Assembly (NCBI GenBank): GCA_004431415.1
Contig: QPMI01000531.1
Coordinates: 1 to 64,000, forward strand
Origin: Cyanophora paradoxa CCMP329
Taxonomy: Eukaryota; Plantae; Glaucophyta
Direction: 5' to 3'
DNA: 64,000 nt
In this document: in pieces, positions 1-24,564 of the stretch
How the letters are laid out: the number at the start of each line of letters is the position of its first letter
Numbering within the stretch: position 1 is the first letter of the stretch
Notes under the pieces: generated by a model
What the model saw: the letters and a program-made list of their open reading frames with translations, nothing else
The model's database searches: none
Told to the model about the DNA's origin: nothing
Position numbers and translations under genes: made by a program

Positions 1-531
1 GCTGTGATGTTGAAGTGAGTGTTGGTGTGAACAGCGAACCGAATTCTCGCAGGAACTCTCTGGAGCCTGTGAGGCGGAGGTCGATTGAAGGAGATCTGGA
101 GCAGGTCCGGTCTCAGTTTGAAGGGGATCCGCTTGGTCAATCCTTTGAACAACAAACCGAACCTGGTCTTTCACGATGATTGATTTTACTAAATTCACAA
201 CTGCGGAACTTGTAGATTACCAGCAATCAGCAAAGCAAATACGTGAACCACCCTAAGCCCCTCCTCCCTAATTCCCCAATCCTCTTTAGGTAGTTTCCAG
301 GTAGTGAAAGTGTTATTTCCTCGCTGAATGCCTTTTTCATTGAGTAGAGTTTAAAGATATGCCTTTTGCGGTGCATTTAGCTGGTAGTACTGAAATAAAT
401 CTAGATCCTCTATAGGACCTTGTAGTAGCGCTCTAAAGCATCTTGATTGCCGGTCGATCCATCACAAAAAATGACTTAAGATAATCCGCTACTTAAATTA
501 GAGAAATAATTTTCTAAGCCTTAAGTAGAGA

Positions 532-920
532 ATGTCGATTCAGAGAAAGCCCCAGCGACCGCTGAAGTTAAGCCCAAGAAGCGCTACCAATTGACCCAGA
601 GCAGAAAGAAGCGAGAACCAGAAATACCGCGAGCGTACACAGTGATCCGAGTTCAGAGCCAAAGAGCTGGCGATCGCAGAGCAAGATACGAGAGATCAAA
701 GATAAATACCTCGAGAAAATGGCGGTCAGAAACAGCAAAAATACGAAATCGATGCGGAGTTCAGAGAGAAAAAGAAGGCCCAATCGCTGGCATACTACCA
801 CAGAAAGCATGCAGAGAAGTTGGCCGCTATTGCAGCGGAGTAGCTCCTGAGAAAGCAGAGCCAGCAATCCTTCGAAACCGGAAGACCCCGCAAGTACAAC
901 AAGGAATCGCAATGATCGTG
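532..920 (+). pseudogene. Small basic viral protein, frameshifted
   Basis: ATG at 532 follows the same upstream motif as other viral genes. K/R-rich reading (e.g. KAQSLAYYHRKHAEKL) is broken across frames. End approximate. Confidence 0.35.
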
Positions 921-1098
921 AGAGACAGACGATATGTATATTTTTATGTACAGGACGATTATCGGTTTTGTATCGTGGGAGAAAATTTGATTTGTCCGTG
1001 GGACCAAAAAATGACTTAAGGAAAAGCCACATAGGTTAATTAACGAAAGGGGAATTTACCCTATCTGGCAAAAATATTTTCTTGGCATAAAGTAAACA

Positions 1099-4000
1099 AT
1101 GCCTCGCGCAAGTTACAAGAGAAAAAACCTTGAAAGCGAAAGCGGTCGAATTGATTAACTCGGTATCCAGCGGAGCCTGCTCACAAGAAACCGCTGATGC
1201 ATTATTGCGCAAATTCTCAGGAACTTCCAAGGTTCCGAAACCATGCTCGAGCTGTACCTCAAGAACATTCAGTCAATTTTCGATACAGAGCGACCTGCAA
1301 AGGATATACCCTGCAATCGCTGCTGGGGTTCGCCAGCTGCATTTGATCGAGAGTCGGTCGCATTGGGCCATTGAGGCTGAACCTCCGAGACCCGAAGAAC
1401 AGGCAGCTGAATCAATTTTCCGGCAGATTGCCCAGTTTCCCGACGATGCTGTTGTCCGGTCACTTTCAAGCTCTGGCCGAAATTAATGCTGAACCACTGG
1501 TCGTGCGAGGGATCAGCCACTCCGCTTTGAAGTCGCATGTACGACCCTAAAAGGGCTTCGATCACAATTCCGGTAAGGATGCTGCGACAAATTGCCCGTG
1601 ATGTTTCGTTACAAGTTCGTGCTGAACCAGAGACACTATATGTCGCTGATTCCTGTATGTTGTTGAGACCGTATTTAGGGCTGATCGACTTGCAAGCGAA
1701 ATTCAGCATTGGTACGATTATTTTGCGAAATTCACGAAATCGTTCTGTGGAGGCTCAGGCTGAGGAGGAAGCCAGGAAGCCGTTCAAGAAGAATTTCTCG
1801 ATGAGGAACTCGAAGAATCGATGCGATGTACCGCAGCTGTGAGCCAGTACATTAATTACGATCTCAATCCCGAGGCGAAATCGATCGAGGAATTAATCAT
1901 CAGCCTGCTTCCGAAAATCGAATGCCTGTGTCTACGATATGCTGATCTCATTGTACTCTCGTTCAATGGAAGCTTGTCACAGAAACAGGAAGTACAAGGA
2001 CATTGAGATGACCTACGAGGTCTGTATCGATTTTTCCACGGAAAGGAATATACTGAGGAGCCTCTATGTCCTCACTCTGAGCAGCTCCGAAAATTCGCGG
2101 ATCGTTGCAGCTGGATTCCGTGTTTATTCGGAGGATAACAAGCTCAAGTACAGATACCCACAGGAGAGATGCCCGTTAATAAGGATCTGCATCCGCAATG
2201 CATGAATTTCATGTACACAATAACCACGTTTACTGCTACAACGATAACATCAAAGCCTCGAGAAGAATTTCAAGAAATGGACCTGGAAACCGAAAACCCA
2301 ACCGAAGCTTCGCTGAACTCATCCTATCAAATCACAGAGACCAAACAATACGATATGTTCGCCCACACACCTGCTGATCTGCTCAGATTGCGACCATGGA
2401 TTGAAAGCTGATAAGGAGAAAGCTACAGTCCGAATCGTTTACACTGGGTCCATGGATGAGCTTCTGTTCACTTTCTTGGATCGCCTTCAATACGAACCAA
2501 AGCTCGGAATGAAAGGGGACAGATCAAAACCCTGATCTTCAAAGCGAGTGAATATTCTTTTCCGTATTTAATCCCTCGGTTTCTGATCACATGGTACAGT
2601 GTGAGTTCGAGACTGAGGCTTACTACAAAAAGGTCCAATCCATTCGTCAAGAATTCAAGGAAGCCCTGATTAACACCGACACAATTTCACAGTACGAGGA
2701 GGGCTTCCGAACAGCCCTTATTAATTACAATCGCTCTGCTCTGAATGGCTATTTCATTAAGCCGAAGCCAGGAACTAAATACACTGCAGTGGATATGTGC
2801 AAATGCTACCCAGCTGTTATTAGCAAGATCGAGAAGCTTCCAGTATTCAATATTTTCGATGGTATCCGCCCTATGATGGTCACCCAATCGAGGAGGATAC
2901 CTTCTATGTGATTGATGTGCAGCAGTTCGATACTGGAACCTACATGCAAGGAGTGGATACATACGAAGAGGATATTGATGATGACCAGTAGGATACAAAT
3001 CCCGCATCTGCGATCCAGGAATTCAGATCCTGCTCGATCGTTATAAGGCTGCATCCTACTCGAACTTGATCACAGGGTACACTCTGAAGCGTCACTGGAG
3101 GACATCAAGGATCTCGTGACTATTACAGGCTACAACCGCCCATCATTTTTCGTAAGCAACCCTCAAAAGGCTGATCCAGAAATAATGTCAAGCGACCTGA
3201 ATCCTCGCGAGAAAAAGGCTACTCTCGTAGAAGTGATTGGTCTGCTAGGAAAGCGACTCGATAAGCGATCCAAGACCAGTTGTTCTGCAAAAAGTCCGAG
3301 GCTGATATCTATGCCCAGCAGGTGGGCGGAATGGTGGAAGTATTCACCTTTGGTGCGAAAACTGATACTCTGGTCAAGAACCTTTCGGATTTCGATGGCC
3401 ACATCTATTATGTGAGAACTGATTCTCAAAAGGATCTCATTAACGGGTTCCTTCCGATCCAGTTCGCAATGTACGATCGAGTTCGCAGCGAAATGTATGA
3501 CAAGTACAAGGAACTCAAAAGCAAAGTTACGAGGTCGTGGAATCCACACTGATTGCCTGTATATCAAAGGAAGGTATAGCTCAAAGCCCTTTGATCGTAA
3601 TAGCTTTGCCAACATTGTCGCTTCTCCTATATTCCGAACAAGAAGCCCCAATGAACCCCATTCGCATTCGGACCCTCCCGAAGCCTATTAAAATTGAGGA
3701 TCCCTTTCGAATATCAATTCCTTCTGCCTTCGAAACGAATTTGATTCGGACGCTTATACCAAGGTTTACAATGAGTTCAATCATGTCAATACCCTTGGAA
3801 TGCTTCCAGGAGCCGGAAAGTCGACCGGATTGATGGTCTACCTGCTAAAAAATGACATCAACGGACTCATAGTTTGCCCCTACAACAAACAAGCGGCCGA
3901 GTTCCGATGCTCTCTGAAAGAAATGGGCATCAGATTGGGAAGCCCGAAGCTGCAAGCCGCATTGAGGTGGCCACCCTGTACAGTGTTCTGGGTCTGCGAG

Positions 4001-5186
4001 TCTCAAATGAGCAAACCTGTGAAGAGGCCTATCGGCTTCACAGGTCAATGAGTTTATGGAAGGCTTTTCCCATGTAGTATTCGATGAGGTCTATGCCTAT
4101 AAAGTAAAGGACCTTGCAAAGATCAAAAAATTCATAAACAAGTATTCGGATAAGAAATTCTACTGCAATGGAGACCCCACCAAAACGCTCCCATAAATGA
4201 TGCTCTTGCTGTGGCTGACCCAAACAATATTACAGCGATGCTATCTCAAGCATCTTCCCCAACACACTGCAGCTGATGATCAACAAGAGCATCGCAAGCC
4301 TGAGGATCGAGAGAAGCTGAAAGCAATCAAGGTCGATCTCTTGAGAACGGACTTGCTCCTACAGAAATAGTAAATAAATACGGATTCAGAACTGCAACTG
4401 ATCTAAACGAAATTCCTGATTCCTACAGGGCTATATGCTATAGAAACGAGATGGCTTACCTGTACAACCGAACCATGCATAAACGTATATACCCCGAAAC
4501 CGAGGGATCCTTGTGAACGGAATCAATTTTTTCAAAGGAATCGAAATCGTTTGTCGTGAATATATCTGTGTGACCCGAGGTAAAAAAGATGAGAAAGTAG
4601 CGGCTTTCACTAATTACAGTTATACCATAGTCGATATCAATCGGAACCAGGTCACTTTGGAGGATGTGTTTGATGGGACCCAGTTCTCTCTCCCCACTGC
4701 TCTGTTGGAAAAGTTCAACCTACCCTATGCTGGAACATGCCACAGTGTTCAAGGACTCACCTACGATTCGGGCATTGTCGTTTGTGAGGCCTCGTTCTGC
4801 CATGTTACTCCTGAGTGGTTCTGGACTGCTCTGACTCGCAACCGAGATTTGAGCGAGATTCTCATTTACACCAAGCTCCACAAGTTCGAGGCTAAATCCG
4901 AGATCTTCGAGCATCTGAAGGCCAAGGTTCGGGCTTACAAGTGCCAGGATCAGAAAGCGGGTCGAGATTATAATGATGATGATTATATTACACCCGAGTG
5001 GATCATTGAGCAGCTCAAGGAGCAGAAGCGAATCTGCTCTCTGTGTACCGAACCCCTTTCCCTTCAGGCAAAGGATCTAAGGTACAGGCTTACTGTTGAT
5101 AGGATTAATAATAAGAGGCTCACATCAAGTCGAACTGCAAGCTGGCTCATCAAGGATGCAACAGCAGCAAAAATAGAATTGTATAG
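1099..5186 (+). CDS. Protein-primed family B DNA polymerase fused to SF1 (Pif1/RecD-like) helicase and C-terminal HNH-like nuclease; many 1-nt frameshifts
   Basis: Motif A YTAVDMCKCYP (~2780-2815), motif B KKATLVEVIGLLGK (~3210-3255), motif C GIHTDCLY (~3540-3565). Walker A PGAGKST (~3805), Walker B VFDEVY (~4080), NGDP, helicase motif V YAGTCHSVQGLTYD and motif VI WTALTRNRD. Then CSLC...LTVDRINN..H..SNC....CN. Confidence 0.85.
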
Positions 5187-5324
5187 TTATAGGATGGCAT
5201 CGAAAATAGTGAGGCGAGGGCTGGGATGAGACCGAAACGACCCTGCTCCCCATTCCGATCCCAGATACAGAGAGAGTAGAAGGCAGAATTAGTAAAAGAG
5301 AAGCAAAGGTAAATGTAGTAGGGG

Positions 5325-6496
5325 ATGTCCCTTTTAAAACCGTGAGTCCGGCTTCGAATAAAATAGTTAGGCGAATGTACGATCCTAAAACAGGTTACAA
5401 GCATCCCATACGATCTATCAGGAGCTGAAGAAAGAGGATCCGAGTGTTACTTATAACGAGGTCAAAGAGGTTGCAGAAAAGCAAGAGTTTATGCAGATTA
5501 ACAAGAAGCCACCCCAGCATCGCAGTCCACATTCATTCCAATCACAGCTCCACCCTGGACCTACCAGGCCGATCTGATATTCTATTTATCTTACGGAAAG
5601 TACAATGCGGGGTACATTGCGGTACTCACTCTTATTGAGATCACGAGCAGGAGGGCTTACGCTAAGAAATTAAAGAATAAAGAGGGAGTCAGTGTTGCGA
5701 CTGCATTTAGAGAGGTATTGGGTGAGCTTCCCGCTCCAATGAGGGTGTTAGAGACTGATTTGGGTTCCGAGTTTAAAGCGAAAGAGTTCCAGGCAGTGAT
5801 CCAGGAGTTTGGAATCGAGCATAGGTTTAAACAGGCTGGGATCACACGAGTTTAGGCATCATGAATCGATTCCATTTGACCCTCAAAACGATGATCAATA
5901 ACTACTGCATCGCTTTCAACACAGTCAAGTTTATGGATAAGCTAGAGGACTTTGTTCTGAATTATAATTCCAGTGTTAATAGGACTATAGGTATGCGACC
6001 AATAGATGTTAGGTTAGAGGATATGGCTCGCATTCGCAGTTTCATTTTATCGAAAAGAAAGCAATTGTTGATGATATATTCGAGAAATTCAAGCCCGGCC
6101 TGTTCGTTCGAGTCTTGCTGCCTAGATCTAAGTTTGACAAGGGGCCACTCAGAGATACAGTCGAGAGGTCTACAAGATCGCAGGAAGGGCCGGGAATGGA
6201 ATCCAGGTCGTAGATGCCAGGGTGTTCCTTTGAATCGAATCTTCAAGCCTCATGAGCTGCAGATCATATCGGAAGTTGAAGCAATCGTTGAGCCTTCCGC
6301 AAGTACAGTGGATACAGTGAGGCAGGAGGCCGCAGCAATTAGACAGATCCACAGAGAGGGCATAGATCCGGCGGAATCAGTGCCAAAAGGCAGCTTGATC
6401 GAGGATAGGGTCCAGAGAACGAAGAGGGTTTCAAGGGAGCTAGCGAATCTAAGAGTAGCCGGAACCGAGAAATTAGCCGGTGGGCAGAGGCTGTAG
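5325..6496 (+). CDS. Retroviral-like (rve) Polinton-type integrase, frameshifted
   Basis: N-terminal YDPKTGY; YQADLIF (first Asp); LTLIEITSRRAYAKKLKNK; LETDLGSEF (second Asp); LGIMNRFHLTLK; YNSSVNRTIGMRPIDV. Confidence 0.88.
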
Positions 6497-6578
6497 CATC
6501 CTATGATAAGGCTCCAGCTATAAGGGCTAGTACTAGGATCCGAACCAGGTAAAATTTTATATATTCGTATAGTAGGAA

Positions 6579-6923
6579 ATGGAGAAAATCTATATTGAGG
6601 TCCCTTTTGAACAAAAGATGAAGCTAAAGCCCTTGGGGCTAAATGGGATATGAAGCATAAATGCTGGTATGTAACTGAGCCGGAACATAAGCTTCTATCT
6701 ACCTATAGTACCGTGGCCGTTTCGGAATTAATGCGCAAAAATAAAAAATTTATTTGAAAATCCGTTCGAGGATCGCGAGGAGGCTAAGAAGGTGGAGCCA
6801 AGTGGGATCCTGATCATAAGCTATGGTTCGTATCGGTATTGATAACCCATTAACACTGACCTACGATAAAGTACAAGTGGGGGCGTGGCTCGTCAAGTCG
6901 GAACGAAGCAAGTCGCAATTTAG
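6579..6923 (+). CDS. Tandem DUF5710-like domain protein, frameshifted
   Basis: Two copies of the motif: IYIEVPFEQKDEAKALGAKWDMKHKCWYV and YLKxPFEDREEAKKxGAKWDPDHKLWFV (homopolymer indels corrected by eye). End approximate. Confidence 0.7.
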
Positions 6924-7489
6924 TAGTAGCTCACGTTACTAGCTGCCAAAACGCAAAGACTGCGAATCGAACTACGTGCAGTATACCGCTGTAATCCTGA
7001 TGCAATGCGGAGTACGGAGCAGTTTACAGCTTCTTTAGTTCGTTTGTCTATCATTAGATATCGCCCCGATTAGGGAGGGGGTGCTTCGGACTTGTGACAA
7101 GGCTAGCTAGTGAGCTAGCGCAAGCGCCCAGCGCTAGCGCTTTCGAATCAGGTCGACATGTAATATATCAATGTGATCGGCGCATCTTGCAGAACACGAA
7201 TGTATACCTCGCTCAACTTGAGGCGCCGATTGTAATTTCGGGGACAATCAAATCATTTTTTGGTCAGGAGGTCCAGTCCAAAAAACTCAGCCTCGACTTG
7301 CTGTCCCAAAAACTATCGTCAAGCCGGACGTGAAGCGGCTCTGAAGCGCCGTCTTTAAAACTTGGTACCCGCATAGTTACCGGTGGACACCCCGTCAACG
7401 TTGATATTAAAAATGTGAGTTGGCTAGAATTCTTAAAACTGAGTTTTGATCTCAGAATGCAGGCAGAATTTCTTATTATTTGTCTTTTT

Positions 7490-8215
7490 TATGAAATAGG
7501 TGATTATAATGGGGTTCATAAATGAATTTTCGCCTACAAAATGGCTTAATTTAAATAACATTTGAATTTAAAAACTTTGGAAGCTTCTCAGAAGCCCGAC
7601 AAAATTACGAAAACCTTCAAAAACCGGCTGCGCTTCCTGTGAACTGGTGGGTCGACGTCATCTGTCAGCTCAGGCCGCCAAGTGGCTTTCGAATTCGATC
7701 TTAATTATAATTAACACGACTGATAAACTGATAGGATATTAGGTATAATTATCCAAACTTAATATTATTATGTCCCTAATTTATGCAAACATGGGGTACA
7801 TAAATGTGCTTTTGGCTGCAACACTGGTTTTTTTAGAATTACAAATAAATTTAAAAGCTTTGGAAGCTTCTCAGAAGCCCAACAGAATTATTAGAATTAT
7901 AAAACCGGCTGCGCTTCCTATGAACTGGGGGGGTGGACTTCAACTGCCAGCTCAGGCCGGCCAGTGGCTTTCGAACTTCGGAATTCGATCTTAATTATAA
8001 TTACCACGACTGATGAAGTGAGAGGATATAAAGTATAATTATACAAACTTTCTATTATTATGTCGATCACGTTGCCTTTTATGTAAAGATGGGGTACTTT
8101 AATGCAATTTTGCCCTACATCGGCCGCAAGATATCAACTTCTTTTAATAAAATATAGTTTTCAGACATTCGAAGCTTCTTAGAAGCCCAGCAAAATTCTG
8201 GAACTTCAAAAAAAC
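7490..8215. repeat. ~285-300-bp diverged tandem repeat, about 2.5 copies
   Basis: ATGGGGT recurs at 7509, 7792 and 8089. GAAGCTTCT(C/T)AGAAGCCC recurs at ~7580, 7863 and 8171. ACCGGCTGCGCTTCCT...GAATTCGATCTTAATTATAATTA occurs in the first two units. Confidence 0.85.
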
Positions 8216-8353
8216 CAACTGGCAAGGTTGGCGAAAAGCAACCCCTACTAGGCTAGCATGCGCAGGCAGCGCAGTACGTACAGTCGGTCACTACTACAGT
8301 GTCGACATCAGTCACTCTGAGTCCTGAGTCCTGACTCCTGAGGTCCGACGGTC

Positions 8354-9808
8354 ATGCTTTCAGAGGCAAGTACTAGTGCATCTGCTACCAGCCGCAAACC
8401 GGGACGCCCGCGCAAGTACGCTTCGGAAGACGAGAGGCTGCAAGCGAAGAGAATGCAGAAGGCTGCAAGGCGCGGGAACGGTATCCTGAACGGGGCGGAG
8501 CTATCAGTATTCGCCTTCGGTTCGTCCGCATGCGCAGGCGAGCGCTCGCTTGCCAGCTCCCGTTCTGACTCCTGCCGCTAGATCATCACGACGGCGATGG
8601 GGGCTTGAATGCTGACCTTGGTCAGCTAGCGATCGACGATGCAGCGGATCCGGAGCTTGAGCAAGTTGCAGCTGGCGACGGTACGTACGCGGCTCGTACT
8701 ACTACCGTAGTACGGTACGCTTGCCAAATGCAGTGCTGACTCCGCCGCGGCGCGCATGCAGCTGGGAGCAGTTCTGCGCCAGTTGTCAACGTTGGTGGCT
8801 CGCAGGCAGGCGGTTCAAGCTCCTCGCAATCGCAACAGGGCAATGGTGCGAGAGCGTGATTGTACATGTGCAGCATGCATGTGCTAATTTGCATGTGCAT
8901 ACGCAGTTCATGTACAACGAGGCGCCGCGCCTTTCTGGATCCAGAAGATCTCGATAAAGATGACGACGATGAACCTTTCAATGCCGCGCCCGCGGTTGTG
9001 AATGCCGCTAACTTGCCAAACGACGTCGAGTACGTATACTAGCCTCTCGGTTCCGATTGCTGTATATTTATGCTCACTGATCCATGGCACCGGGCATGCG
9101 CAGAGTCCTCAAGCAACGGGTCATGCAGGCTGAGGCAGCAGCGCGAAGAGCGCATGAAGGCAAGCGGAAAGCCGAGGCGGATGCAGCTGCATACCTAGAG
9201 ACTTTCAGGGCATCCGAGCTTCTACCTATCATTGAAAAACAGGCGCGTACGCTTTTCTCCTGCACTGTTTATGCATTGCTTATTAATAATGCTGCAAACG
9301 GCAGTGTCATGATGCCAACTGCGCACTCGCTGGCAGCATTGATATGGGTGGCCGATCGACTTCACTTATCCCATTCATCAAGAATGCGGTTCTGCTGCAT
9401 GATCGGGTCTGTTCGTATATATATATACATATACATGTTGCTTCGCTCTCTCAATCTTGCTACTGCATGCGCAGAAGAACAAGGCTCTCGTCGACCACGG
9501 CGAAAAACCAAAGCCCCTACCCTCGCTCTACGCAAGTTTGTGAAGTGGATCAGCAACGACGGACATATCGAGGTTCGCAGATTGATAATTAATTCTCATG
9601 CAACTGCATCATGATCTCGCTCCATTATTAGTGGTGGTACTGGATCAGCGGCTCGCCTTCGGAGCCAATCGCATTCACTGACGTAGATGTCACTCCGGTG
9701 GGAAGCGAAGCTGGTGATCTCCCTCCACAAATGCCAGCTCCTCGTCGCTCAGTCCGTTCTAAGAAGGCTGCTGCGACCTCGTCGTACAGGATTCTTAATG
9801 TTGTTTAG
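8354..9808 (+). CDS. Multi-exon AT-hook protein of unknown function within the viral block
   Basis: KPGRPRKY AT-hook in exon 1. About seven GT/GC...(GC)AG introns of ~60-90 nt, several with CTGAC/CTAAT-like branch points, separate coding-like exons (DPEDLDKDDDDEPF; VLKQRVMQAEAAARRAHEGKRKAEADAAAY). Exon model approximate. Confidence 0.55.
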
Positions 9809-10181
9809 ATGAAACTGAATGCTTTAGATATAGATATCGCATTTATATACATATATATAGCCTGCATTACATAGCCGGCGCTTAGTTGCTAGCTAATCGT
9901 TTTCGCTTAGATCTACTGTACTGCATATAGCTATTCGCCTACTATACTAAATACGCTTTCTGTTGCGTAATTATATAACAGAGTATTCTTTTATTCGAGT
10001 CATATGTGATTCGATGATACCGTAATACAATCTCTCCTTTTTACATTATTTTTACAGTAAAACCACAGGGAGGGGGTCATGGGTAAAGAGAGAAAATGTG
10101 ATTTATCAATAAAGTCGATAGATATATATGAGAGGCATAGGTAGGGGGTCATGGTTTTTGATCGAGGGTTGATGAAAAGTG

Positions 10182-11243: not shown

Positions 11244-11259
11244 TTGCTATTATAGACCA

Positions 11260-15298: not shown

Positions 15299-15320
15299 TA
15301 TTATCTGTATAATATAAAGA

Positions 15321-16336
15321 ATGTCCACACAAATAGCAGTTCCTGTTTTCTGTTATGCCGCCCCAAAAATACATCAACTGAACCATACAGTAACAGATGC
15401 AACACCTGGGTTTATTTGCACAGAAACAACAGGGCTGATTCGTTTTCACAAAATTCTGTGATTAGATGCAAAGAAATTCGATGTGATCGCAATGGGGAAA
15501 AATAAGAACCACAGGACTCATTGTATCTAACAAGAACCAAGTCCAATCAGGTCAAATTGTTTCAGATACAGCAATTTATGACAATGTGGGAGGGTTCACC
15601 ACACCAAAATAGTTACTTTTGATAATACAATTAATAATGCTGCTCTTTCAGTTAGAAGTGGAGGGGCATATATTGGAGATGGGCAAGGATTGATGGAACT
15701 CTAACAGCCAATCAAGTAAACATTACAGGAACAAGCACATTTACAGGTTCAGTAACAGCCAATGGAGGCATAAGTATTCCAGAAACAACACAATCGATAA
15801 TAACAGCAACTTCCAAGGTGGTCACACCTGAAATCGATACAGGAGCAAATGTGAATCTTGTTTTGAAACGCAACAGTGATATTATGGCTACTCTGGAAGC
15901 CAATCGCTTGACAATCAACACAAATTGTTATTTAAAATATGACTATCAGCCTCGATTTTCTGTTCAACTTAATTATCCTCATGTTGCTACCAGTGAAACT
16001 GCTCTTATCAATTGGGAGTAGTGTTTGTGAATAATAGGGGGCATTCAATGTCAGTAATGGAAGGTTCACTGCTCCTGTTGCAGGTCATTACAGATTTACA
16101 GCATATACCCATTCAACTTCAAGTAGTCCAATAAGTCTCTCTTTAAAAGTAAATGACCAAGACCCAGGGGTCAAAGTATCATAACACAAAATGACTCAAC
16201 TCTTACGAATAAACCGCTTTACATTAGTGTAATTCTTAACATTGCTATGGGTGAGTATATAACACTTGTAACAAATAATGGGGGTAGCTACACAAATCGA
16301 ACAACATTCACAGGTGAACTTTTGAGTGTCACATAA
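15321..16336 (+). CDS. Fibre protein 2 with C1q-like head (frameshifted)
   Basis: Shared N-domain NSVIRCKEIRCD and ALSVRSGGAYIGDG; EIDTGANVNL; QPRFSV...FNVSNGRFTAPVAGHYRF...TTFTGELL. Confidence 0.72.
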
Positions 16337-16358
16337 ATTTTCTCTTTATAAAGTAGGA

Positions 16359-16625
16359 ATGTCGAATATCTACCAAGTAGTTCTCTCAGATACTGAGAAG
16401 CTGGGAATGGAATTCTGTGCAGCTTCTGTTCAGGATTGGATTGATAATGTGGTTCATAACAGGGCAAGAATTGCAATTGATGATATTGTTCAGAAAGAGA
16501 TCCAGTCTTGCATTGCATCAGGAATTCAAATACCAACCTCAAAGGAAGCCATCGTTTTACAGGCATTCCAAAGGGGAACTGTAAAGAAAGGTATCGAATA
16601 TAATTATGTCACAGAAGAACAATGA
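16359..16625 (+). CDS. Small phage-type fibre-associated (putative assembly/chaperone) protein, 88 aa
   Basis: LSDTEKLGMEFCAASVQDWIDNVVHNRARIAIDDIV...GIQIPTSKEAIVLQAFQRGTVK matches, from recall, small proteins encoded next to C1q-headed tail fibres in aquatic phages. Confidence 0.6.
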   Translation: MSNIYQVVLSDTEKLGMEFCAASVQDWIDNVVHNRARIAIDDIVQKEIQSCIASGIQIPTSKEAIVLQAFQRGTVKKGIEYNYVTEEQ

Positions 16626-16660
16626 ACATTATTTTTCTTTCCTTCTTAGTAAAAGAAGCA

Positions 16661-17526
16661 ATGGGTGAATATAATCGAGTTCAACTGCCTATATATTCCC
16701 TTGGATCCCTGCAATGCATTTTCGCCAGCATGAAGTAAATGATGAGGTTCGTGGTTTAGAATCCACAGAGAGACCCAATTCCAATGGCAACTCCTTTGAT
16801 AAAAATTCGATTATTCGAGTTAAAGAGCTGAGAGCTGATAAGAATTCTGGTGTGGTTAAAACAACTCGACTTCTTGTCACAAATGCTAACTTTTTCCAGC
16901 CTACCAATGGAGGTCCTGATGCTTACAGTGTTGATCTGAAAGCCCTTGATTTCGATAAGAATTCTGCTGCTGTTACTGTGAGATCAGGAGGAGCATTTAT
17001 TGGGGGTGGCTGTCGAATTTCAGGTCAGCTTTCATCCTCAATTTCGTATAATGATGTCCCAGATACTCTAGAGCAAAATGTAGAAGACCCCCAACGAATT
17101 CGATTATATACTCCTGTTGCACAGCAGCCATTAATTCAATTTTACATTGGATATACTGTTACTCTTGAAAACTCGGAATTAATTGAAGGAACCAAAAGAG
17201 TACTGAGAGGTCTTGCGATTCCATCTGCAATGCTTTCCCTTTGTAGAGCCAACAACAATCAAGTAGGTCATAGATACTATTTCAATGTTCAGGGATATAA
17301 TCATTTCGGTTATGGCTACTGTGTTTATAATAATAATTTCACCTTTGACTTGTTTGTTACTGATATTGGGTTATATACTATAACTCTTATCGGTTTGAGA
17401 ACAGATATAGCCGCTGTATCAGCTCTTAGAGGTGTAACTCCTGATACTCTTTCAGTTACAGGGTTTTACATGGAGCCAGATGTAATTGATGACCCAACCC
17501 ATAAAAGATATATCCCTTTAATGTAA
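16661..17526 (+). CDS. Fibre paralogue 3 (one early frameshift)
   Basis: NSIIRVKELRADKNSGVVKTTRLLVTNANF and AVTVRSGGAFIGGG; non-C1q C-terminal beta domain ending LIGLRTD. Confidence 0.7.
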
Positions 17527-17527
17527 A

Positions 17528-18378
17528 ATGGCTGAGCAACCCCACTTGAACGAATTATTACACCTCAACTATCATTAGCTGCCCCAGCAAACCATGTTTT
17601 ACAGCATGCTACCTTTGATGATGTAGAGGGTCTCCAATCCACAGAGGTCCAACCTACAATGAACACCTTTGGTTCCACCCACAAACTGAGATTACAGGAA
17701 CTCAGATGTGATAAAAATAATGGAATAGTTAAGACAACTAAGCTACTTGTCACAAATGCAAACTTTTCTGCTCATTATGGAGACCCAGATAGCTATGGAG
17801 ATCCTCTGTCTACTTATTCTTTTGAATCTAGGTCGGGAGCTATTAACTGCAAATCGGGGGGAGCATATATTGGGGATGGTCTTAGGGTTGGTGGGGCTGT
17901 TGGAGCGCCTTTATTTGTGAATGATCAACCCAATCCCATTGATCCCAACACAAGAATTCGAACCTATGTCCCCAGCATGAATGCCCCCTATATAATAAAA
18001 ATATTCCCCATTGTTGTAAATGAACAAACAGCAGTAGTAGACTCTCTTGTTGAAATTGGTGACCACTACAAGGTAGTTGTGGATATCCCACCAGATGTTT
18101 ATGCTCTTTGTCAAGTAGAGGGTGGAACTCCTAATTTTGCTGTTGTGATCACCCCATATGATAATTTCGGAATTGCTTATCATGGAGTCAATTTTGGTTT
18201 GGAAGATTATCAGTTTCTGGTTAGAGCCACCAAGTTTGGTATCTACAAGTGTGTATTATATGCTGAGAGAACCGATTTTATTGCAAAGCAGAATACCTAT
18301 GCTGAATACTATGGACAAATCGATATTTCCCCATTTTTGGGCAGGATACTGCTCCATAAGAATATTGGTTATATATAG
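17528..18378 (+). CDS. Fibre paralogue 4 (one early frameshift)
   Basis: LRLQELRCDKNNGIVKTTKLLVTNANF and AINCKSGGAYIGDGLRVGG; C-domain VDIPPDVYALC...VITPYDNFG...LYAERTD, similar to paralogue 3. Confidence 0.7.
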
Positions 18379-18381
18379 AGT

Positions 18382-18654
18382 ATGGATAGTAAAACAAAAA
18401 AGTTTATTGATGCTGCTATGACAGTTCATGGTAAAGATAAATTCGATTACAGTGAGACACATTACATCAAAGCTCAAGAGAAAGTATCTGTGAGATGTTT
18501 GCAGTGTAACAAGGTGATCCTTACATATCCCTTTAATCATGTGAAGGGATCAGGTTGTAGGGAATGCAACAAAAAGCATTCTCAGGCTTACAGGAAAAGG
18601 GCTACTTCATCAATCAAAGTAGAGTACAGGGATATTTGCATTAGGTTCGATTAG
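18382..18654 (+). CDS. DUF723/CapR-like zinc-ribbon protein
   Basis: FIDAAMTVHGKDKFDYSETHY...KVSVRCLQC...PFNHVKGSGCREC, the DNA-binding repeat of viral homing/Vsr-like nucleases, here without a nuclease domain. Confidence 0.75.
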   Translation: MDSKTKKFIDAAMTVHGKDKFDYSETHYIKAQEKVSVRCLQCNKVILTYPFNHVKGSGCRECNKKHSQAYRKRATSSIKVEYRDICIRFD

Positions 18655-18683
18655 GATTAATTAATTTTTCTAAGGTATTCTTA

Positions 18684-19082
18684 ATGGAGACTAAATACAG
18701 AGGCTTTCATGTAATGCTTGATTACAAGGCTAAAACAGCTATAGCAACAGGTTATGAGCATGTTAGCTTTCTTGGTAATTGGATTATGAGAACCCTTGAA
18801 CAAGCAGTATTGAGACAAGGTATTAGGATTGTTCATAAGCATTGTGAGATATTTGATGGCAAACTATCACCTCCTGGTTTTGCATTGGTTCTGCTATTAG
18901 ATGAAAGCCATTGCACAGCTCATTGTTATTCCAATGAAGGCATGTTAGCAATTGATATATTCAGTTGTGGTAAAGAAGCTCAGCATAAAACACAAGCAGT
19001 TGCAGATGAGATCGATAAAACAATGAATTTCTTAACATTTGAGAAGACTGAGAGACATAAACATGATAGATTCCCGTTTTGA
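18684..19082 (+). CDS. speD: S-adenosylmethionine decarboxylase proenzyme, short prokaryotic type
   Basis: Intact 132-aa ORF with G.H..LD at the N-terminus, GFALVLLLDESHCTAHCY (ES self-cleavage site) and AIDIFSCG. Confidence 0.9.
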   Translation: METKYRGFHVMLDYKAKTAIATGYEHVSFLGNWIMRTLEQAVLRQGIRIVHKHCEIFDGKLSPPGFALVLLLDESHCTAHCYSNEGMLAIDIFSCGKEAQHKTQAVADEIDKTMNFLTFEKTERHKHDRFPF

Positions 19083-19359
19083 TGGGTTTCTATAATGATA
19101 AACAGGGTAATTTACCTTTTTTATTACAATGGCAATCGTTAAAAAAGGATATAATATATCCTTTCCTACAATAGCTTTCTACAATGATTTTCTTTCTACA
19201 GTAGCTTTTGTTACAATAGAATTCTACTGTATGATGTAGCCGAAATATGAATGCACCCTACATTAAGCAATGTCAAGTATTTCGAATACTATTCGATTTC
19301 CTTACAATAACACTCAGCATCTCCCTTGATTCCCCTATTATATTATATTTATATTTAAG

Positions 19360-20067
19360 TGGACTCAAGGTTGACTCATATTAATCGTAAAGTAGTAAAA
19401 GTATATGGATTTTGTTACGAATTCAATGCAAGGGTTGACTAAGTGGGTTGAGTTGACTCAAATTTCACAGGAAATATTTGGGACCTAAAGTTTTCTAAAA
19501 AGGATTTCAAAAAATGTGTCAACTCCCCCCACTTAGTCAACCCTGACCATAAACAGTAAGGATTTGGGCTAACATGTATCACAAAGTGAACATATTGAGT
19601 CCACTTAGAAGATCCACTTTTGAAATCCAAGTTGATTTTGCTTGAAATTTCAAAGTTGATCTAAAAGTGAGTCCACCCTGATTGATTATGGTAACAAAGT
19701 TGACTAAGTTGACTAAGTTGAGTCATCTTAAGAAATTCAAGGAGACTAAGAGTTCAAATTGTTTATGAAAAGTGAGTCAACTTAGACCACTTATGGTAAC
19801 AAACTTAAATATTTAATTGATTTAATCGGAAAAGAACATGATTTAATCGAATTTATTGATATAATTCCGATTAGATTCATTTAGGATTCAATTAAGATCA
19901 ATCGAAGTTATTGATATAATTCCGATTAACTACAATTAAGATACAATATCGATTAATCGAGTTTATCGATATAACATCGATTAAATTAATTGAAAATGCA
20001 TTTAAAAATATGAAAATTCATGTGAAAATTCAAATAAATTAATCGATTTTATTGATATAACATCGAA
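19360..20067. repeat. Iteron-like subterminal repeats of the AT-rich fibre/speD element
   Basis: Many GTTGACT(A/C)A / TGAGTC(A/C)A motifs in both orientations (19360-19790). Four ~30-bp units ATTTAATCGA.TTTAT(T/C)GATATAA(TTC/CAT)CGA (~19840-20067). Confidence 0.75.
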
Positions 20068-20069
20068 TC

Positions 20070-20142
20070 ACACATATGAATATTCATATTTTAATCCTGA
20101 GGCGGAACGCCGAGGGATTAAAATATGAATATTCATATGTGT
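20070..20142. other. Perfect 28-bp inverted repeat with internal GGCG-GAA-CGCC mini-hairpin; probable element terminus
   Basis: ACACATATGAATATTCATATTTTAATCC (20070-20097) is the exact reverse complement of 20115-20142. The ATPase frame runs into it and loses homology. Confidence 0.9.
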
Positions 20143-20634
20143 AGTGTTGAACTCTTTAACATTGCTCAAAATCGACGAAAAGCAAACGTACTCACAGTTC
20201 CGCCGAATCGTCGGACTGATGCCACAAAGACGTTGAGTCGTTATGAAAAGGGTGGTGTTGTAATGACGGCCAGAAGTAAATAGCTTTTGCATGAGTCTGT
20301 CACTGTGGACATTTACTAGGTCATTGTCAAGTAAATCGTCTAAAACAATTGCAATCTTGCGATCATCATTTTTGCGTCTTCTTTCTTTTTGTCGTTCTAG
20401 CAGCGCTTCAACCAAAACTGGATCCCATTCTTCCTGGATATTACTTGGTCGTGTTGTATCATTCCATTGCCCAGTAAATGCGGTCGTACTGAAGACGTAA
20501 ATATCGTCTAACTGTGGCGCTACAGCATTTAGCACGTGTTTTACGTAGGTGCTCTTGCCCGAGTTTGTTGGACCGACAAACAAGAACCGTTTAGGCAGTT
20601 TTATTTCTGTAGGATCAAACAGTTTGATATCCAT
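20143..20634 (-). CDS. A32/FtsK-HerA-like genome packaging ATPase, 3'-truncated
   Basis: Walker A GPTNSGKST, Walker B IAIVLDDLL, FTSGRHYNTTLFITTQ and ISPTIRRNCEY. Confidence 0.92.
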
Positions 20635-21863
20635 CTAGAAGTTACTTACCTTTAGAGTTGACATTTGATACGAGTTAATTACGAGAACATTGTGGCGCAG
20701 GACGTGGAAGTCAACAACTGCTGGCGCTGCGTTTGTGCAGCCGGTCACAGTTAGCGAGCAGTAGCTGCTGCTGGAATTAAAGAAGTCTGTGTAGCCGAGG
20801 ACAGCGTTATGCAGTGAGTCTTTGCCAGATTTCGAAAGCACAATCCCATAGACATTTCCGTCCTCGAAGCCAAGAGCTGAATTGCCAGTGGTTGCACCGC
20901 GGTATTGAGTTGGAATGTGATAGCACGATGATACAAACCCAGAGATTGGCTTATTGCTGATGTCGAGAGTTCGGTTGTTGTGCATGATCTCAAACGAATC
21001 GATTTTCAGCGCATTTCCGTTGCCAGCAAATGAATTGTGATTGCGAGTGCCCAGGTGATTCGCATTACGCACTGTCATCAGGATCGCGTGCACAAGGCCG
21101 CTGACGTTGGCAAGGGAGATTTCGACTGCATTCCCCGCGTCGTCAGTCTTTAACTGCCTCGAGCGCTTTGAAATAATCTCGGTGAAAGGAATTCGAATAC
21201 CACCGCTCTCGTTTGCAGATTTAAGCATAGACTCAGCCTCTTCGCTAGGGATATTCACGAACTGGCAAACCAGGGCACAATCCGTTAGAGTTGCAACAGC
21301 ACTAGCGACAGTTCCAACCACCGAAGCCGAACGGAAGTCAATCTCGACGGTGGGCATGTCAGCCAGTGCGAGGAGCGGGAAGTATGAATTGTCCCAGAGC
21401 TGGAGGGGATCTTTAGCACATACTCGCGACTGGCATCGAGAATCTCAAGAGCAGCGTCCTTTCCAAAGCCGTAGCTGCTAGCAAAAGCCTGGGCGGATGC
21501 AACGCTATTATCGATGAGCGCGTTCACAGTAAGCCAGTCTCCTGGGATCACCATCTTGAAGGATCCATGAACAAAGCGCACGTTTTCAATAAATGCACCT
21601 GCGCCATTCGGCAGCACTGAGGCGGCCGCTCCGCCAGCGACGCTGACCTTAAAGTATAGCGAGACACCGTTTAGAAGTTGCTTGCGCGGAAGGTCGAAAG
21701 CGGCAGTCTGCGCGAAGCCGTACGAGTTGCCTCGCGGACGGATCGTTTCAAGGAAAGGCTTGAACTTGGGGCTGACACCGACAGTGAGACCCGGGGATAG
21801 ATAAAGCTCGCTTGAACCTTTGGTAGTGAGGAGCTCCTTTAGAGTTGTTCCTGCTTGCGCCAT
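20635..21863 (-). CDS. Major capsid protein copy 2, full length (~410 aa; one frameshift ~21405)
   Basis: Two ORFs join as ...EYVLKIP[L]QLWDNSYFPLLALADMPTVEIDF. Beta-rich, ends HNVLVI, and lies between penton and ATPase. Confidence 0.8.
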
Positions 21864-21907
21864 TTGCTATTATAGACCAGAAAATTTTCATGCATATTGT
21901 TGTAAAG

Positions 21908-22784
21908 ATGAAGCTCCGCGTAAATGTCGATTCTAGGGACCGGTTCGAAGGCACGTCCTCGAATTTCAAGATCAATCTCCCAAGGCCCTCGTTAATGTAA
22001 AGTCGGTGCGAGTTGATTCGCTAGAACTGTTTCATAACATGTTCAACCTGTCCACACAAGCCGCAATTATCACCGGCACCCTTGATCCCTCTGGCGTTGA
22101 GAAAACACGTGCCAACACTTTCAAGCCCGGAGTCTATACGCCAACCTCCCTTGCAAACTATCTAAGCACGCTTCTTAAAACCCAGCAGTATAGTTACGGT
22201 GGAACTACTTATCAGCGCAAGTTCGTCGTTCAGTTCGAAGAGATCTCAATGCGGCTTAGGTTCCTGTGTGAAGCGGACTTTATTTTGAGCTTCACATCGG
22301 CCGAACTAGCGAACCTGCTCGGGTTTGCGAAGACTCTCAGTGACCTTTCCAGTGAGCTTGACACACCTGAGACAATCGATGGCGTACAATATTCGTACGA
22401 GCTGTTCAGCGATATGCCAGTTGATCTACTTTATCACACGTATTTGTTCCTGTACATTCAGCAGATCAAAGGCTCGATCTTGACACTTAACCCTATACAA
22501 CGGGCTCGATCGCAAAGATTCACATCGACTCAAAATTCGGGGAGCTCATCAAGTTCACATCTGAGGATCGTGTTCCCGTCACAGGCTTCGATCGAAACGC
22601 TGAGCTGTCTGAACTTGACATATCGCTGCGCTATCATAATGGAACAGACGCTGTCACAAACACGGAGTTCTCGTTCGTGCTAGAGTTCGATATCGAGGAT
22701 GTCTCTTACACGTCTGCTGCTGCTAAATCCGCAATCAAGAATGCAGCCAGCGAGTACGTCCCCTTCGACAGATCGTTCGCATAA
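21908..22784 (+). CDS. Minor capsid (penton) protein, copy 2 (two homopolymer frameshifts)
   Basis: Near-identical to 11288-12166; lacks one C in two C-runs. Confidence 0.85.
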
Positions 22785-22809
22785 GTTTTTTCCCACTACT
22801 AGTTAAAAG

Positions 22810-23464
22810 ATGTCGACAGACAAGCAGTCTCGGCTGCGCACTCCGCGAAAGAAGTCGACAGACATGCAGTCTTGGCTGCGCACTTCCAGCCCTACTAAGA
22901 AGAATCACATCGAGTTCTTGAGTGGTGATACTGATGCTTACCCGCTAGCCCGTCGCGCTGGTGGCGGTGAGGGTGCATCCAACGACTATGCTCTTACCGC
23001 CGATGAGAACGCTATTCTTGATAAGATCCCGAATTCTCGGACTAAGAAGACCAAGACTAGCAAGCTAAGGATACCGACGATGGGCCGCTGTACATCTCAG
23101 AGACGGCTAATCGTAGCAGGTATTTCATTAAAACTGTGACCGGTCTTAAAACAGTTTCAAAGAAGCGAGCTAGTGATCTTATAGCTGGCATCGCGGCTGA
23201 GACTAAGATGGAGAACAAGATTTTAAATGAACCGATCACGAAGACAAAGGTCGATAAGAAGGTTGCCCCTCCTGCATCTGCTGTTCCTGCTAAGACGATT
23301 GTTGCGATCCCGAGGTCGATGAGAATGCTAGCGAGCTGCCTGTAGCTAACGCATCGATCCTGCGCATCGCCTCTAGCAGTGCTGATCCTGTCGGGCCGGC
23401 GATCGAGTACAAGCCAATGCTGAGCGGCTTCACTAAGCTAGGGCTCCGGCATCGCTGGGAGTGA
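22810..23464 (+). CDS. Hypothetical basic viral protein, copy 2 (frameshifted)
   Basis: Homologous to 12192-12866, with an 18-nt in-frame deletion and 1-nt losses. Confidence 0.7.
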
Positions 23465-23580
23465 ATGCCTGTAACGATGCCTGTAACGATTGGCTTGACG
23501 GCTTGGCTCGGGCTTGGTCTCCGGGATCCGGCTTGGCACAGGGCTTGTCTCGGGCTTGTCTCCGGCTTGTCTCCGGCTAG

Positions 23581-23870
23581 CTATCAGCGCACTATCAGCG
23601 CACTATCAGCGCACTATCAGCGCACTATCACTTTTATGCCAGCGCATAGAAGCTCGTCTACATTACTATACTTTTATGCCAGCGCATAGAAGCTCGTCTA
23701 CATTACTATACTTTTATGCCAGCGCATAGAAGCTCGTCTACATTACTATACTTTTATGCCAGCGCATAGAAGCTCGTCTACATTACTATACTTTTATGCC
23801 AGCGCATAGAAGCTCGTCTACATTACTATACTTTTATGCCAGCGCATAGAAGCTCGTCTACATTACTATA
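23581..23870. repeat. 11-bp x~4.5 and 40-bp x6 perfect tandem repeats
   Basis: CTATCAGCGCA at 23581-23630; CTTTTATGCCAGCGCATAGAAGCTCGTCTACATTACTATA at 23631-23870. Confidence 0.97.
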
Positions 23871-24110
23871 CTTTCTGTCCAAATCTTCAACATCTCTCGA
23901 TCTTTTCGTTTTTTAGGACTTCCTGTCCAAATCTTCAACATTGCTACTGGCGCTATCATCCACACAGTATTATTGACTAACTAGAACCTAAACTCGCATA
24001 TGCAATCAGCTTCGATTATATAGTTTTATCGTCTAGCTAGAACCTGGAAACCTCTCCGCTATTTAGATAGGAAGAACACAGTATTAACGCCTAGCTGCTG
24101 ATTAAGCTAT

Positions 24111-24379
24111 CTCTGCAGACCGTCGCGTTGGGGGCCCGTCTCAAATCACTGCTATATCTTTTGCAAGATCGATTGGAGTAGACGTTAGATACTACCTAGT
24201 GGTTGCTGGATGGAAGGGGAGGTAGACCAGAGGGAGAGTAGGACGGTAGACGTAGCGGAAGGGTTGGCGAGAGTGATGGCTGGGAAGACGCTGGATTGGG
24301 TGGGTTGGGGTGGGTTCGGAGAGGTGAGGGTGGTGAAGAGGGGTGGGCCACAGAATCAGGTCCTCTCTCATTTTTTTTT
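24111..24379. repeat. Terminal sequence of capsid-module element, copy C
   Basis: Direct, diverged repeat of 14353-14617. Confidence 0.85.
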
Positions 24380-24564
24380 GAAGCCTGATTCAAGCCTCAT
24401 TCAGCCTGATCCAAGCCTGATTCAAGCCTGTTTCAGCCTGTTTCAAATCAGGCTGAATCCTCCGAAATAAGGCTGAGCCTGTTTCGCCCAGCCTGTCTCA
24501 GCCTTATTTAAGCCTGCTTTAAATCAGGCTGAAACAGGCTCCGGCGACCCCCTTTTTACTAGTG
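24380..24564. mobile_element. End of a CACTA (EnSpm) DNA transposon
   Basis: Ends ...CCCCCTTTTTACTAGTG (reverse complement CACTAGTAAAAAGGGGG), preceded by dense AGCCT(G)/(C)AGGCT subterminal repeats in both orientations. GC-rich DNA starts right after. Confidence 0.75.

What the first reader, a model, noticed from the sequence alone, without database searches (positions are those of the whole stretch)
1..24564. Russian-doll nest of at least four endogenous DNA-virus elements inside a CACTA transposon
Seen: four junctions where terminus-like non-coding DNA directly abuts a broken gene or element. 10301: AT-rich hairpin region | truncated MCP. ~14617: terminal repeat A | truncated fibre. 20142: 28-bp hairpin | truncated ATPase. 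24379: terminal repeat C | CACTA subterminal region. Inference: these are the right-hand halves of serial insertions (Z into A, A into B, B into C, C into CACTA), involving at least two virus families with different base composition and ends. This implies targeting of pre-existing viral/TE DNA (a safe-harbour or virus-kills-virus strategy; each hit destroys a virion gene) or a host trap locus analogous to a piRNA cluster. This is the best candidate for an undescribed system here.
Basis: partly seen in the sequence, partly recalled or inferred. Interest (0 to 1): 0.88.

Follow-up and report, generated by a model that had tools for sequence, protein, structure and literature searches.

The report
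Viruses nested four deep in alga
In the alga Cyanophora paradoxa, pieces of four virus-like elements from three families lie in a row, each ending flush against broken DNA of the next and the last against a transposon end; they are likely viruses that inserted into one another, a pattern already reported in another protist and likely due to tolerance of, and bias toward, AT-rich foreign DNA, not a new targeting system.

Summary
The four junctions are in the sequence, and two are pinned to the base by short-read contigs. Z ends at 10300 and other copies run on into different flanks. Intact copies of the capsid gene continue past 10301, and intact ATPase copies past 20143. A and C are two variants of one family (96% identical, pN/pS 0.07). 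So there are four elements of three families, all multi-copy, in the glaucophyte Cyanophora paradoxa. Best reading (0.6): the right halves of serial integrase-made insertions of polinton-like viruses, piled up where AT-rich, dispensable DNA tolerates and probably attracts them. The left halves and target-site duplications lie outside the window and were not seen, so adjacent deletion stays open. Dedicated targeting is not needed: other Z-type ends lead into low-copy DNA, and three virion-gene hits out of three has a chance of about 0.06-0.24. Nesting of these viruses in each other and in DNA transposons is already reported, three deep, in Halocafeteria (preprint). This scan also noted a two-level nest on another piece of this genome. 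New here: one more layer, a glaucophyte host and a very divergent capsid.

The parts
1..10300 (.). Element Z, right part: Tlr1-like polinton-like element (replicase, rve integrase, small ORFs, repeats, terminus); GC 0.46
   Evidence: 6855-10081 is one contig at about 2.5-3.9 times host depth in 4 runs (in X20 in two pieces)
1099..5186 (+). Z replicase, about 1,360 codons in several frames: likely inactivated family B polymerase + SF1 helicase + C-terminal HNH/EndoVII-like nuclease
   Evidence: UvrD_C_2 E 0.0011 and Viral_helicase1 E 0.0014, below cut-off; PHROG Dda-like helicase E 3.6e-4, endonuclease VII E 8e-4; Walker A and PolB-like motifs by eye
5375..6496 (+). Z retroviral-type (rve) integrase, frameshifted in the window
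   Evidence: PF00665 E 4.5e-11 on 5502-5852
6579..6757 (+). Z small DUF5710 gene
   Evidence: PF18974 E 1.1e-9
7509..8240 (.). Z non-coding direct repeats, about 290 bp, 2.5 copies, 74% alike
   Evidence: no Rfam match
10181..10233 (.). Z internal subterminal hairpin
   Evidence: z -5.8, 0 of 200 shuffles
10258..10300 (+). Z terminus (last 43 bp, shared with a subfamily that has another interior); junction J1 at 10300|10301
10301..14616 (.). Element A, right part; same family as C; GC 0.53
10301..11243 (-). A major capsid protein gene, cut at J1 (3' part missing)
   Evidence: C's copy continues 286 bp further; intact copies run on in 2 of 2 runs; homologue resembles double jelly-roll capsids
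11270..12166 (+). A likely minor capsid protein (298 aa), assigned by position and size only
   Evidence: no family hit; fold failed, pLDDT 39
12192..12866 (+). A basic ORF of unknown function (224 aa), shared with C
12867..14350 (+). A-specific accessory module with ORF 13458-13961
   Evidence: no match in C; contig 13135-14090 at about 3 times host depth
14352..14616 (+). A terminal region ending CTCTCA + T run; junction J2
   Evidence: 86% to C's end; alignment
14617..20142 (.). Element B, right part; GC 0.36, CpG o/e 0.41; no capsid, ATPase or integrase visible
   Evidence: single contigs at about 20-45 times host depth
14617..15298 (+). B fibre-like gene 1, front part missing at J2, weak C1q-like end
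   Evidence: (C1q E 0.038, weak)
15321..18378 (+). B further fibre-like paralogues (15321-16336, 16714-17526, 17659-18378) sharing an SGGA(Y/F)IG motif, and a small ORF 16359-16625
18382..18654 (+). B zinc-finger ORF like a domain of phage endonucleases
   Evidence: PHROG E 3e-9 to 2e-8
18684..19082 (+). B S-adenosylmethionine decarboxylase
   Evidence: PF02675 E 1.3e-11
20070..20142 (+). B terminal 73-nt palindrome: 29-bp arms, predicted tandem G.A pairs and GAA loop; junction J3
20143..24379 (.). Element C, right part; GC 0.49
   Evidence: contigs at about 13-28 times host depth
20143..20634 (-). C A32-type packaging ATPase, cut at J3 after 164 codons
   Evidence: PF04665 E 2.3e-9, profile 13-171 of 242; intact copies run on in 4 of 4 runs
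20635..21863 (-). C major capsid protein gene, full length, one frameshift in the window
   Evidence: both halves match P0105; P0106 resembles Capsid_NCLDV/Capsid_N clusters
21890..23464 (+). C likely minor capsid gene and basic ORF
   Evidence: 96% to A
23465..23874 (.). C tandem arrays (11-bp and 40-bp units)
24110..24379 (+). C terminal region ending CTCTCA + T run; junction J4
24380..24564 (-). CACTA-type transposon end with subterminal repeats in both orientations
   Evidence: a contig in 1 of 4 runs carries further repeat units at this place (table 5c)

Best explanation
This is likely the right half of a real nest of integrated polinton-like viruses: a C-family virus likely inserted into a CACTA-type transposon, then B into C's packaging ATPase gene, A into B's first fibre-like gene, and Z into A's capsid gene. 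Shown: three families, true termini for Z, A/C and B, flush joins at J1 and J3, intact copies of the hit genes elsewhere in the same organism, several to dozens of copies per family, and purifying selection between A and C. Inferred: each join was made by integrase strand transfer (an rve integrase is seen only in Z). Also inferred: the pile-up arises because, in a gene-dense host of about 70% GC, earlier insertions are dispensable, silenced and AT-rich, so later insertions there survive and are probably favoured. No dedicated targeting machinery or trap is required.
For: Flush terminus-to-gene joins with no microhomology at 10300|10301 and 20142|20143, as an integrase makes and homologous recombination does not. 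A and C end at the same motif before unrelated DNA. All four joins have the polarity that the right half of a nest must have. A versus C: 64 synonymous of 590 sites and 14 non-synonymous of 1,873, pN/pS 0.069, so they are separate working variants, not a local duplicate. Rough copy numbers from single-contig depth over one host contig: Z 2.5-10, A-only module about 3, C 13-28, B 22-47. The 30 bp right of J1-J4 have GC 0.47, 0.27, 0.30 and 0.33, against 0.73 at the host flank. A/T 6-mers number 10-59 per kb in the elements and 0.8-3.1 per kb in host genes. Toy model: uniform insertion gives at most 0.08 four-deep chains, while 3-fold tolerance with 500 elements or 10-fold bias with 300 gives 1.3-3.0 (element number and length assumed). 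Other Z-type ends lead into contigs of 382-3,931 nt at 0.4-1.6 times single-copy depth (6 listed), so targeting is not exclusive to multi-copy viral DNA. The same pattern and explanation are reported in Halocafeteria, and a PLV hotspot in Tetraselmis. Repeats and viral genes are methylated and silent in this species.
Against: No left half and no TSD was seen (outside the window), so insertion is not separated from adjacent deletion. Integrases of A/C and B are not visible. B has no hallmark virus gene in view. The bias is inferred from one locus and a toy model with assumed numbers. With the outermost layer also required to lie in a repeat, the model gives 0.4-0.9 chains for the same settings, so a real bias is needed and its size is unknown. 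The J1 target (GC 0.47) is only moderately AT-rich. In Cafeteria, EMALEs showed no sequence preference and mostly hit host genes (15 of 22 classified sites), so a bias toward foreign DNA is not general.
Confidence: 0.6

Rival explanations
1. A tandem cluster of neighbouring elements trimmed by adjacent deletions: each element's end attacked the next element in cis (intramolecular transposition) or was joined to it by repair, so some left halves no longer exist.
For: It gives the same flush terminus-to-interior joins and the same polarity. Tandem integration followed by deletion is proposed for these viruses in bioRxiv 10.64898/2026.10.13.758929 (passages). All remnants are short (4.2-5.5 kb).
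Against: It needs four deletions all in one direction. The remnant length is also what hits in a virion module near one end would give. Nests with TIRs and TSDs are documented in Halocafeteria.
Confidence: 0.15
2. Active targeting: the integrases, or a tether, seek resident viral DNA or virion genes, so that newcomers disable competitors or use them as landing pads.
For: Three of three virus-into-virus hits break a virion gene. Uniform insertion cannot give this depth. A two-level nest is noted elsewhere in this genome (e1-10595630, unchecked). Element-specific targeting of viruses exists for Ngaro retrotransposons (91% of type 1 in EMALEs).
Against: Three of three has probability 0.06-0.24 by chance. 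Three unrelated families with unrelated ends would need the same habit. The other nest noted in this genome hit a polymerase gene. At least 4-5 other Z-type ends lead into low-copy DNA. Each hit family keeps many intact copies, so one hit removes little.
Confidence: 0.12
3. Assembly artefact or an event private to one culture: one or more joins come from collapsed or chimeric repeats, or from a sub-clonal insertion.
For: The region is built of multi-copy families and is poorly polished (homopolymer errors).
Against: Misassembly joins sequences within shared homology, whereas these joins fall exactly at element termini with no homology. The segments between joins are only 4-5.5 kb. The CACTA end leads into a single-copy host contig in 4 of 4 runs (24635 onwards).
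Confidence: 0.08
4. A host trap locus like a piRNA cluster that collects viral DNA and makes small RNAs against it.
For: The host methylates and silences repeats and viral genes. The locus samples three families at once.
Against: No small-RNA evidence was obtainable. The nest sits 4 kb from rps19 in ordinary gene-dense DNA, and the CACTA end abuts what reads as a host exon. The sampled families remain in many intact copies. Nothing host-made (promoter, long transcript) is evident.
Confidence: 0.05

Closest known systems
Nested endogenous PLVs and virophages of Halocafeteria seosinensis (bioRxiv 10.64898/2026.07.28.741278; sections 7, 8, 10 and passages read)
   Same: Low-GC viral elements inside one another (5 PLVs, 9 virophages, one three deep) and inside DNA-transposon regions; terminal palindromes in some subtypes; 'viral sequences are themselves hotspots', 'land where they are tolerated'.
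   Different: Here four viral layers plus a CACTA-type end (MULE and LINE there), a glaucophyte host, a far larger GC contrast, a site next to housekeeping genes; TIR pairs and TSDs not seen here.
Tlr1-like PLVs with inactivated pDNAP-SF1 helicase fusion (PMC5499653; section 8 and passages)
   Same: Z has a gene of about 1,360 codons with PolB-like motifs, a C-terminal SF1 helicase and an HNH/EndoVII-like tail, next to an rve integrase.
   Different: The polymerase domain is assigned by motif only; Z's capsid module is outside the window; no close relative was found.
PLV integration hotspot of Tetraselmis suecica (PMC9356565; passages)
   Same: PLVs cluster, and new ones are proposed to integrate into established ones.
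   Different: That is a 0.8-Mb chromosomal region without base-level nests; this is one locus with four defined junctions.
EMALEs and Ngaro retrotransposons of Cafeteria burkhardae (PMC8547959; section 9 and passages)
   Same: Multi-copy integrated DNA viruses with rve integrase; layered nests of virus and transposon.
   Different: EMALEs are virophages and show no sequence preference; the elements that target viruses there are retrotransposons.
PLVs of Cyanophora paradoxa mentioned in PMC12220804 (passages)
   Same: PLVs with phage-like fibres are already known from this species.
   Different: The passages describe retrotransposons nested in PLVs, not virus-in-virus nests; supplementary tables were not read.

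Membership tests
Polinton-like virus (A/C) | Double jelly-roll major capsid protein | tested here: met
   Indirect: both halves match P0105 (E 5e-8 in 1.84 billion proteins; 30% identity for the N half). The second hit P0106 matches Capsid_NCLDV/Capsid_N clusters by features (0.98) and structure (TM 0.68). No direct Pfam hit; own fold failed (pLDDT 39.6).
Polinton-like virus (A/C) | A32-type packaging ATPase | tested here: met
   PF04665 E 2.3e-9
Polinton-like virus (A/C) | Minor capsid protein | tested here: inconclusive
   298-aa ORF next to the capsid gene; no family hit; pLDDT 39
Polinton-like virus (A/C) | Integrase and replicase; no maturation protease | not testable with these tools
   Would lie in the left part, outside the window
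Polinton-like virus (all four elements) | Terminal inverted repeat pair and 4-6-bp TSD | not testable with these tools
   Only right ends are in the window; Z's end motif occurs once
Tlr1-like PLV (Z) | rve integrase | tested here: met
   PF00665 E 4.5e-11
Tlr1-like PLV (Z) | 1,000-1,400-aa protein with C-terminal SF1 helicase and nuclease tail | tested here: met
   About 1,360 codons; helicase and EndoVII hits of E 4e-4 to 1e-3, Walker A motif; hits are below curated cut-offs
Tlr1-like PLV (Z) | Inactivated family B polymerase domain before the helicase | tested here: inconclusive
   VDMCKCYP and HTDCLY resemble motifs 1 and 3 by eye (motif consensus recalled); no profile hit
Tlr1-like PLV (Z) | Capsid and ATPase genes | not testable with these tools
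   Not in 1-10300
Polinton-like virus or virophage (B) | Capsid, ATPase, integrase | not testable with these tools
   Only fibre-like genes, AdoMetDC and a zinc-finger ORF are visible; B's family is inferred
PLV/virophage subtypes with palindromic ends (B) | Palindrome at the very end of the element, next to the target | tested here: met
   73-nt palindrome ending at 20142, flush with the target
CACTA DNA transposon (features recalled) | Terminus 5'-CACTA with a short TIR | tested here: met
   24549-24564 on the minus strand; the pattern was taken from the window, so the match itself is not a significance test
CACTA DNA transposon (features recalled) | Subterminal short repeats in both orientations | tested here: met
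   8 + 3 copies of one 6-mer in 185 bp, against 7 + 9 in the preceding 24.3 kb
CACTA DNA transposon (features recalled) | 3-bp TSD and transposase | not testable with these tools
   Other end outside the window
piRNA-cluster-like trap locus | Long precursor and small RNAs that silence copies in trans | not tested

The most novel reading that the evidence does not exclude
Unrelated polinton-like virus families of a glaucophyte actively direct their integration into resident proviruses, preferentially into virion genes. This would be provirus-on-provirus competition by insertional knock-out, building deep nests that also feed gene shuffling between families.
Probability: 0.12. Interest if true: 0.8.

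Novelty: new member of a known kind. Interest (0 to 1): 0.38.

Why it matters
As it stands, the locus is an unusually deep, base-resolved example of a known process. It shows that a glaucophyte carries at least three young, multi-copy DNA-virus families with different ends and a capsid protein that has only 2 detectable relatives among 1.84 billion proteins. Its order of layers dates the activity of the families relative to each other. Because host and viruses differ so much in base composition, and the species is culturable and has published methylation data, a flank census here could settle whether PLV hotspots arise from tolerance, sequence bias or true targeting, which the literature leaves open. 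If targeting were shown, it would be a new form of conflict among endogenous viruses.

Tried and rejected
Bridging J1 with short-read contigs: in 2 of 2 runs no laid contig spans 10300|10301; depth at 10302-10309 comes from the intact-capsid contig alone. This is inconclusive. Contigs drop rare variants, a single-copy link between two high-copy repeats is what graph cleaning removes, and the window's A copy differs from the laid contig at 6 of 50 bases. J2-J4 were not examined at this resolution; one search listed 32 of 5,932 pieces. Left-hand junctions: none of the 9 joints is a strand-changing join of Z's end to the capsid 3' part, and the merged flank consensus does not show the expected duplication; neither is evidence of absence. 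Relatives with context: 7 scans of viral contigs and 2 of metagenome contigs gave one weak hit, L001, which is bacterial DNA and rejected as chance. The 5.8-billion searches for the capsid half and the helicase found nothing. Both folds had pLDDT about 39, so no fold search was run. No PDB sequence hit for P0105. The Atlas does not hold the window's proteins or P0105. No Rfam match in the window. The Z-B end similarity (score 36 against shuffle maximum 30) is a 28-bp AT-rich match and was rejected. A as a decayed local duplicate of C was rejected by pN/pS 0.069 and different accessory modules. A T-run target preference for A/C was considered and left open, because comparison with the paralogous fibre gene suggests that the T run may belong to the element. 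Scan notes by sequence and near place gave nothing.
Full report
Setting. Bases 1-24564 have 31-59% GC in 1-kb windows, against mostly 61-84% in the rest of the window, apart from one AT-rich island. No whole genome is held. A host ribosomal protein S19 exon 4 kb downstream is 100% identical to one EukProt record, whose accession names Cyanophora paradoxa. A genome paper on the species gives 99.94 Mb, likely haploid, 29.4% repeats (PMC6704402, passages). Repeats and genes of viral origin are CpG-methylated and silent in this species (PMC12344493, abstract, passages and section 9).

Anatomy. Four segments differ in composition (GC 0.46, 0.53, 0.36, 0.49). Z (1-10300) holds a gene of about 1,360 codons with PolB-like motifs seen by eye, an SF1 helicase and an EndoVII-like tail, an rve integrase (E 4.5e-11) and a DUF5710 gene. 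That is the layout of Tlr1-like PLVs (PMC5499653, section 8). A (10301-14616) and C (20143-24379) share 2,557 aligned bases at 96% and their ends at 86%. They carry a capsid gene, a likely minor capsid gene and a basic ORF, and C also an A32 ATPase (E 2.3e-9). The capsid half found only 2 relatives among 1.84 billion proteins; one of them matches double jelly-roll capsid clusters by features and predicted structure. B (14617-20142) has four fibre-like paralogues, a zinc-finger ORF, an AdoMet decarboxylase and a 73-nt terminal palindrome; no hallmark virus gene is in view, so its family is inferred. 24380-24564 is a CACTA-type end with repeats in both orientations (family features recalled). 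The 200-bp ends of Z, A/C and B are unrelated; of 6 pairs only A-C scores far above shuffles.

Junctions. A search found 23 of 24 listed runs holding 19600-29500, all of one organism; I laid 4 of them and then 2 of those 4. J1: contigs stop or diverge exactly at 10300 in 2 of 2 runs, with 2 and 5 loose ends of low agreement, and six listed flank contigs of 382-3,931 nt at 0.4-1.6 times single-copy depth. An intact capsid gene continues before 10301 in both runs. So 10300 is a true terminus and the join is flush. J3: in 4 of 4 runs an ATPase contig matches from exactly 20143 and has other letters before it, so intact ATPases exist and the palindrome ends flush on the break. J2 and J4 vouch for each other: A and C stop at the same motif before unrelated DNA. 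The gene after J2 lacks the front part that its paralogue has. No contig was seen to bridge J1, which is inconclusive (see Tried and rejected). J2-J4 were not tested for bridging, and no TSD could be seen.

Age and activity. The frameshifts look like sequencing errors: 4 of 5 A-versus-C indels are single bases in homopolymers, and all 12 indel rows shown from short-read contigs are insertions (42 rows not shown). PMC10120064 describes the same artefact (passages). A and C differ at 64 of 590 synonymous and 14 of 1,873 non-synonymous sites (pN/pS 0.069), so they diverged as working viruses and have decayed little. Depth of single contigs over one adjoining host contig suggests about 2.5-10 copies for Z, about 3 for A's accessory module, 13-28 for C and 22-47 for B; these are rough figures.

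Mechanism. Flush terminus-to-gene joins point to integrase strand transfer (inferred; only Z's integrase is seen). The polarity fits the right half of a nest: C into the transposon, B into C, A into B, Z into A. Intramolecular attack on a neighbour gives the same joins, so only the upstream sequence can decide. Is the depth more than chance? In a toy model (100 Mb, 20-kb elements, 100-500 elements assumed) uniform insertion gives at most 0.08 four-deep chains. Three-fold tolerance with 500 elements gives 1.3, and ten-fold bias with 300 gives 3.0; these fall to 0.4 and 0.9 if the outer layer must also sit in a repeat. So a bias is needed, but a modest one suffices. The window offers one: A/T 6-mers are 10-59 per kb in the elements and 0.8-3.1 per kb in host genes, and the four targets have GC 0.27-0.47. 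Three virion-gene hits of three has probability 0.06-0.24 for virion shares of 0.4-0.62. Other Z-type ends lead into low-copy DNA of unknown kind. I therefore rank tolerance plus AT bias (0.6) above adjacent deletion (0.15), active targeting (0.12), artefact (0.08) and host trap (0.05).

What is known. bioRxiv 10.64898/2026.07.28.741278 (sections 7, 8, 10 and passages) reports 5 PLVs and 9 virophages inside other viral elements, one three deep, insertions into MULE and LINE regions, terminal palindromes, and a safe-harbour reading. PMC9356565 (passages) reports a PLV hotspot. bioRxiv 10.64898/2026.10.13.758929 (passages) reports tandem integration and proposes deletion between neighbours. PMC8547959 (section 9 and passages) found no sequence preference for EMALEs but virus-targeting retrotransposons. 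PMC12220804 (passages) mentions a PLV of this species. My searches found no description of this locus or of a virus nest in a CACTA element. Supplements of these papers were not read (those of the preprints are closed) and may list the locus. Unchecked notes of this scan describe a two-level PLV nest and a G.A-paired terminal hairpin on other pieces of this genome.

Verdict. The observation largely holds and the nest is probably real, one layer deeper than the published case that I found. It is a new member of a known kind, not an undescribed system. Interest 0.38.

Noticed in passing
window 24565-24790: The CACTA-type end abuts what reads as the middle of a host exon, followed by an 86-bp intron-like stretch. 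A single-copy-depth contig in 4 of 4 DNA runs joins 24663 to 24750 (letters between not known), which suggests a paralogue with another intron or none.
   Followed up: partly
window 32550-34700: A 2.1-kb AT-rich island (GC 0.41, CpG o/e 0.34) with many CACTGA/TCAGTG and CATG motifs and no Pfam hit in two ORFs; probably another non-autonomous transposon.
   Followed up: partly
window 7509-8240: Three diverged non-coding repeats of about 290 bp in Z keep a conserved GAAGCTTCT-AGAAGCCC core; candidates for origin, promoter or RNA; no Rfam match.
   Followed up: partly
window 8250-9800 and 12900-14150: Z and A each carry GC-richer accessory ORFs near their right end. Those in Z look spliced and one has an AT-hook-like RKPGRPRK stretch (motif name recalled). 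They are part of the multi-copy elements by contig continuity.
   Followed up: no
window 10258-10300: The last 43 bp of Z are shared with a subfamily that has a different interior (loose ends at 10258 in both runs): possibly a non-autonomous or sister element using the same integrase.
   Followed up: no
window 14617-16340: Other B copies skip 186-613 bp within the fibre-like genes (5 joints), so the fibre module varies in length between copies.
   Followed up: no
window 14617-20142: B is CpG-depleted (o/e 0.41) while Z, A and C are not (0.97-1.09), which hints at a longer or different exposure to host methylation.
   Followed up: no
window 29647-30050: Two 160-bp direct repeats (80% alike) in host DNA between rps19 and a RING/TRAF-like spliced gene (domain names by eye).
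   Followed up: no
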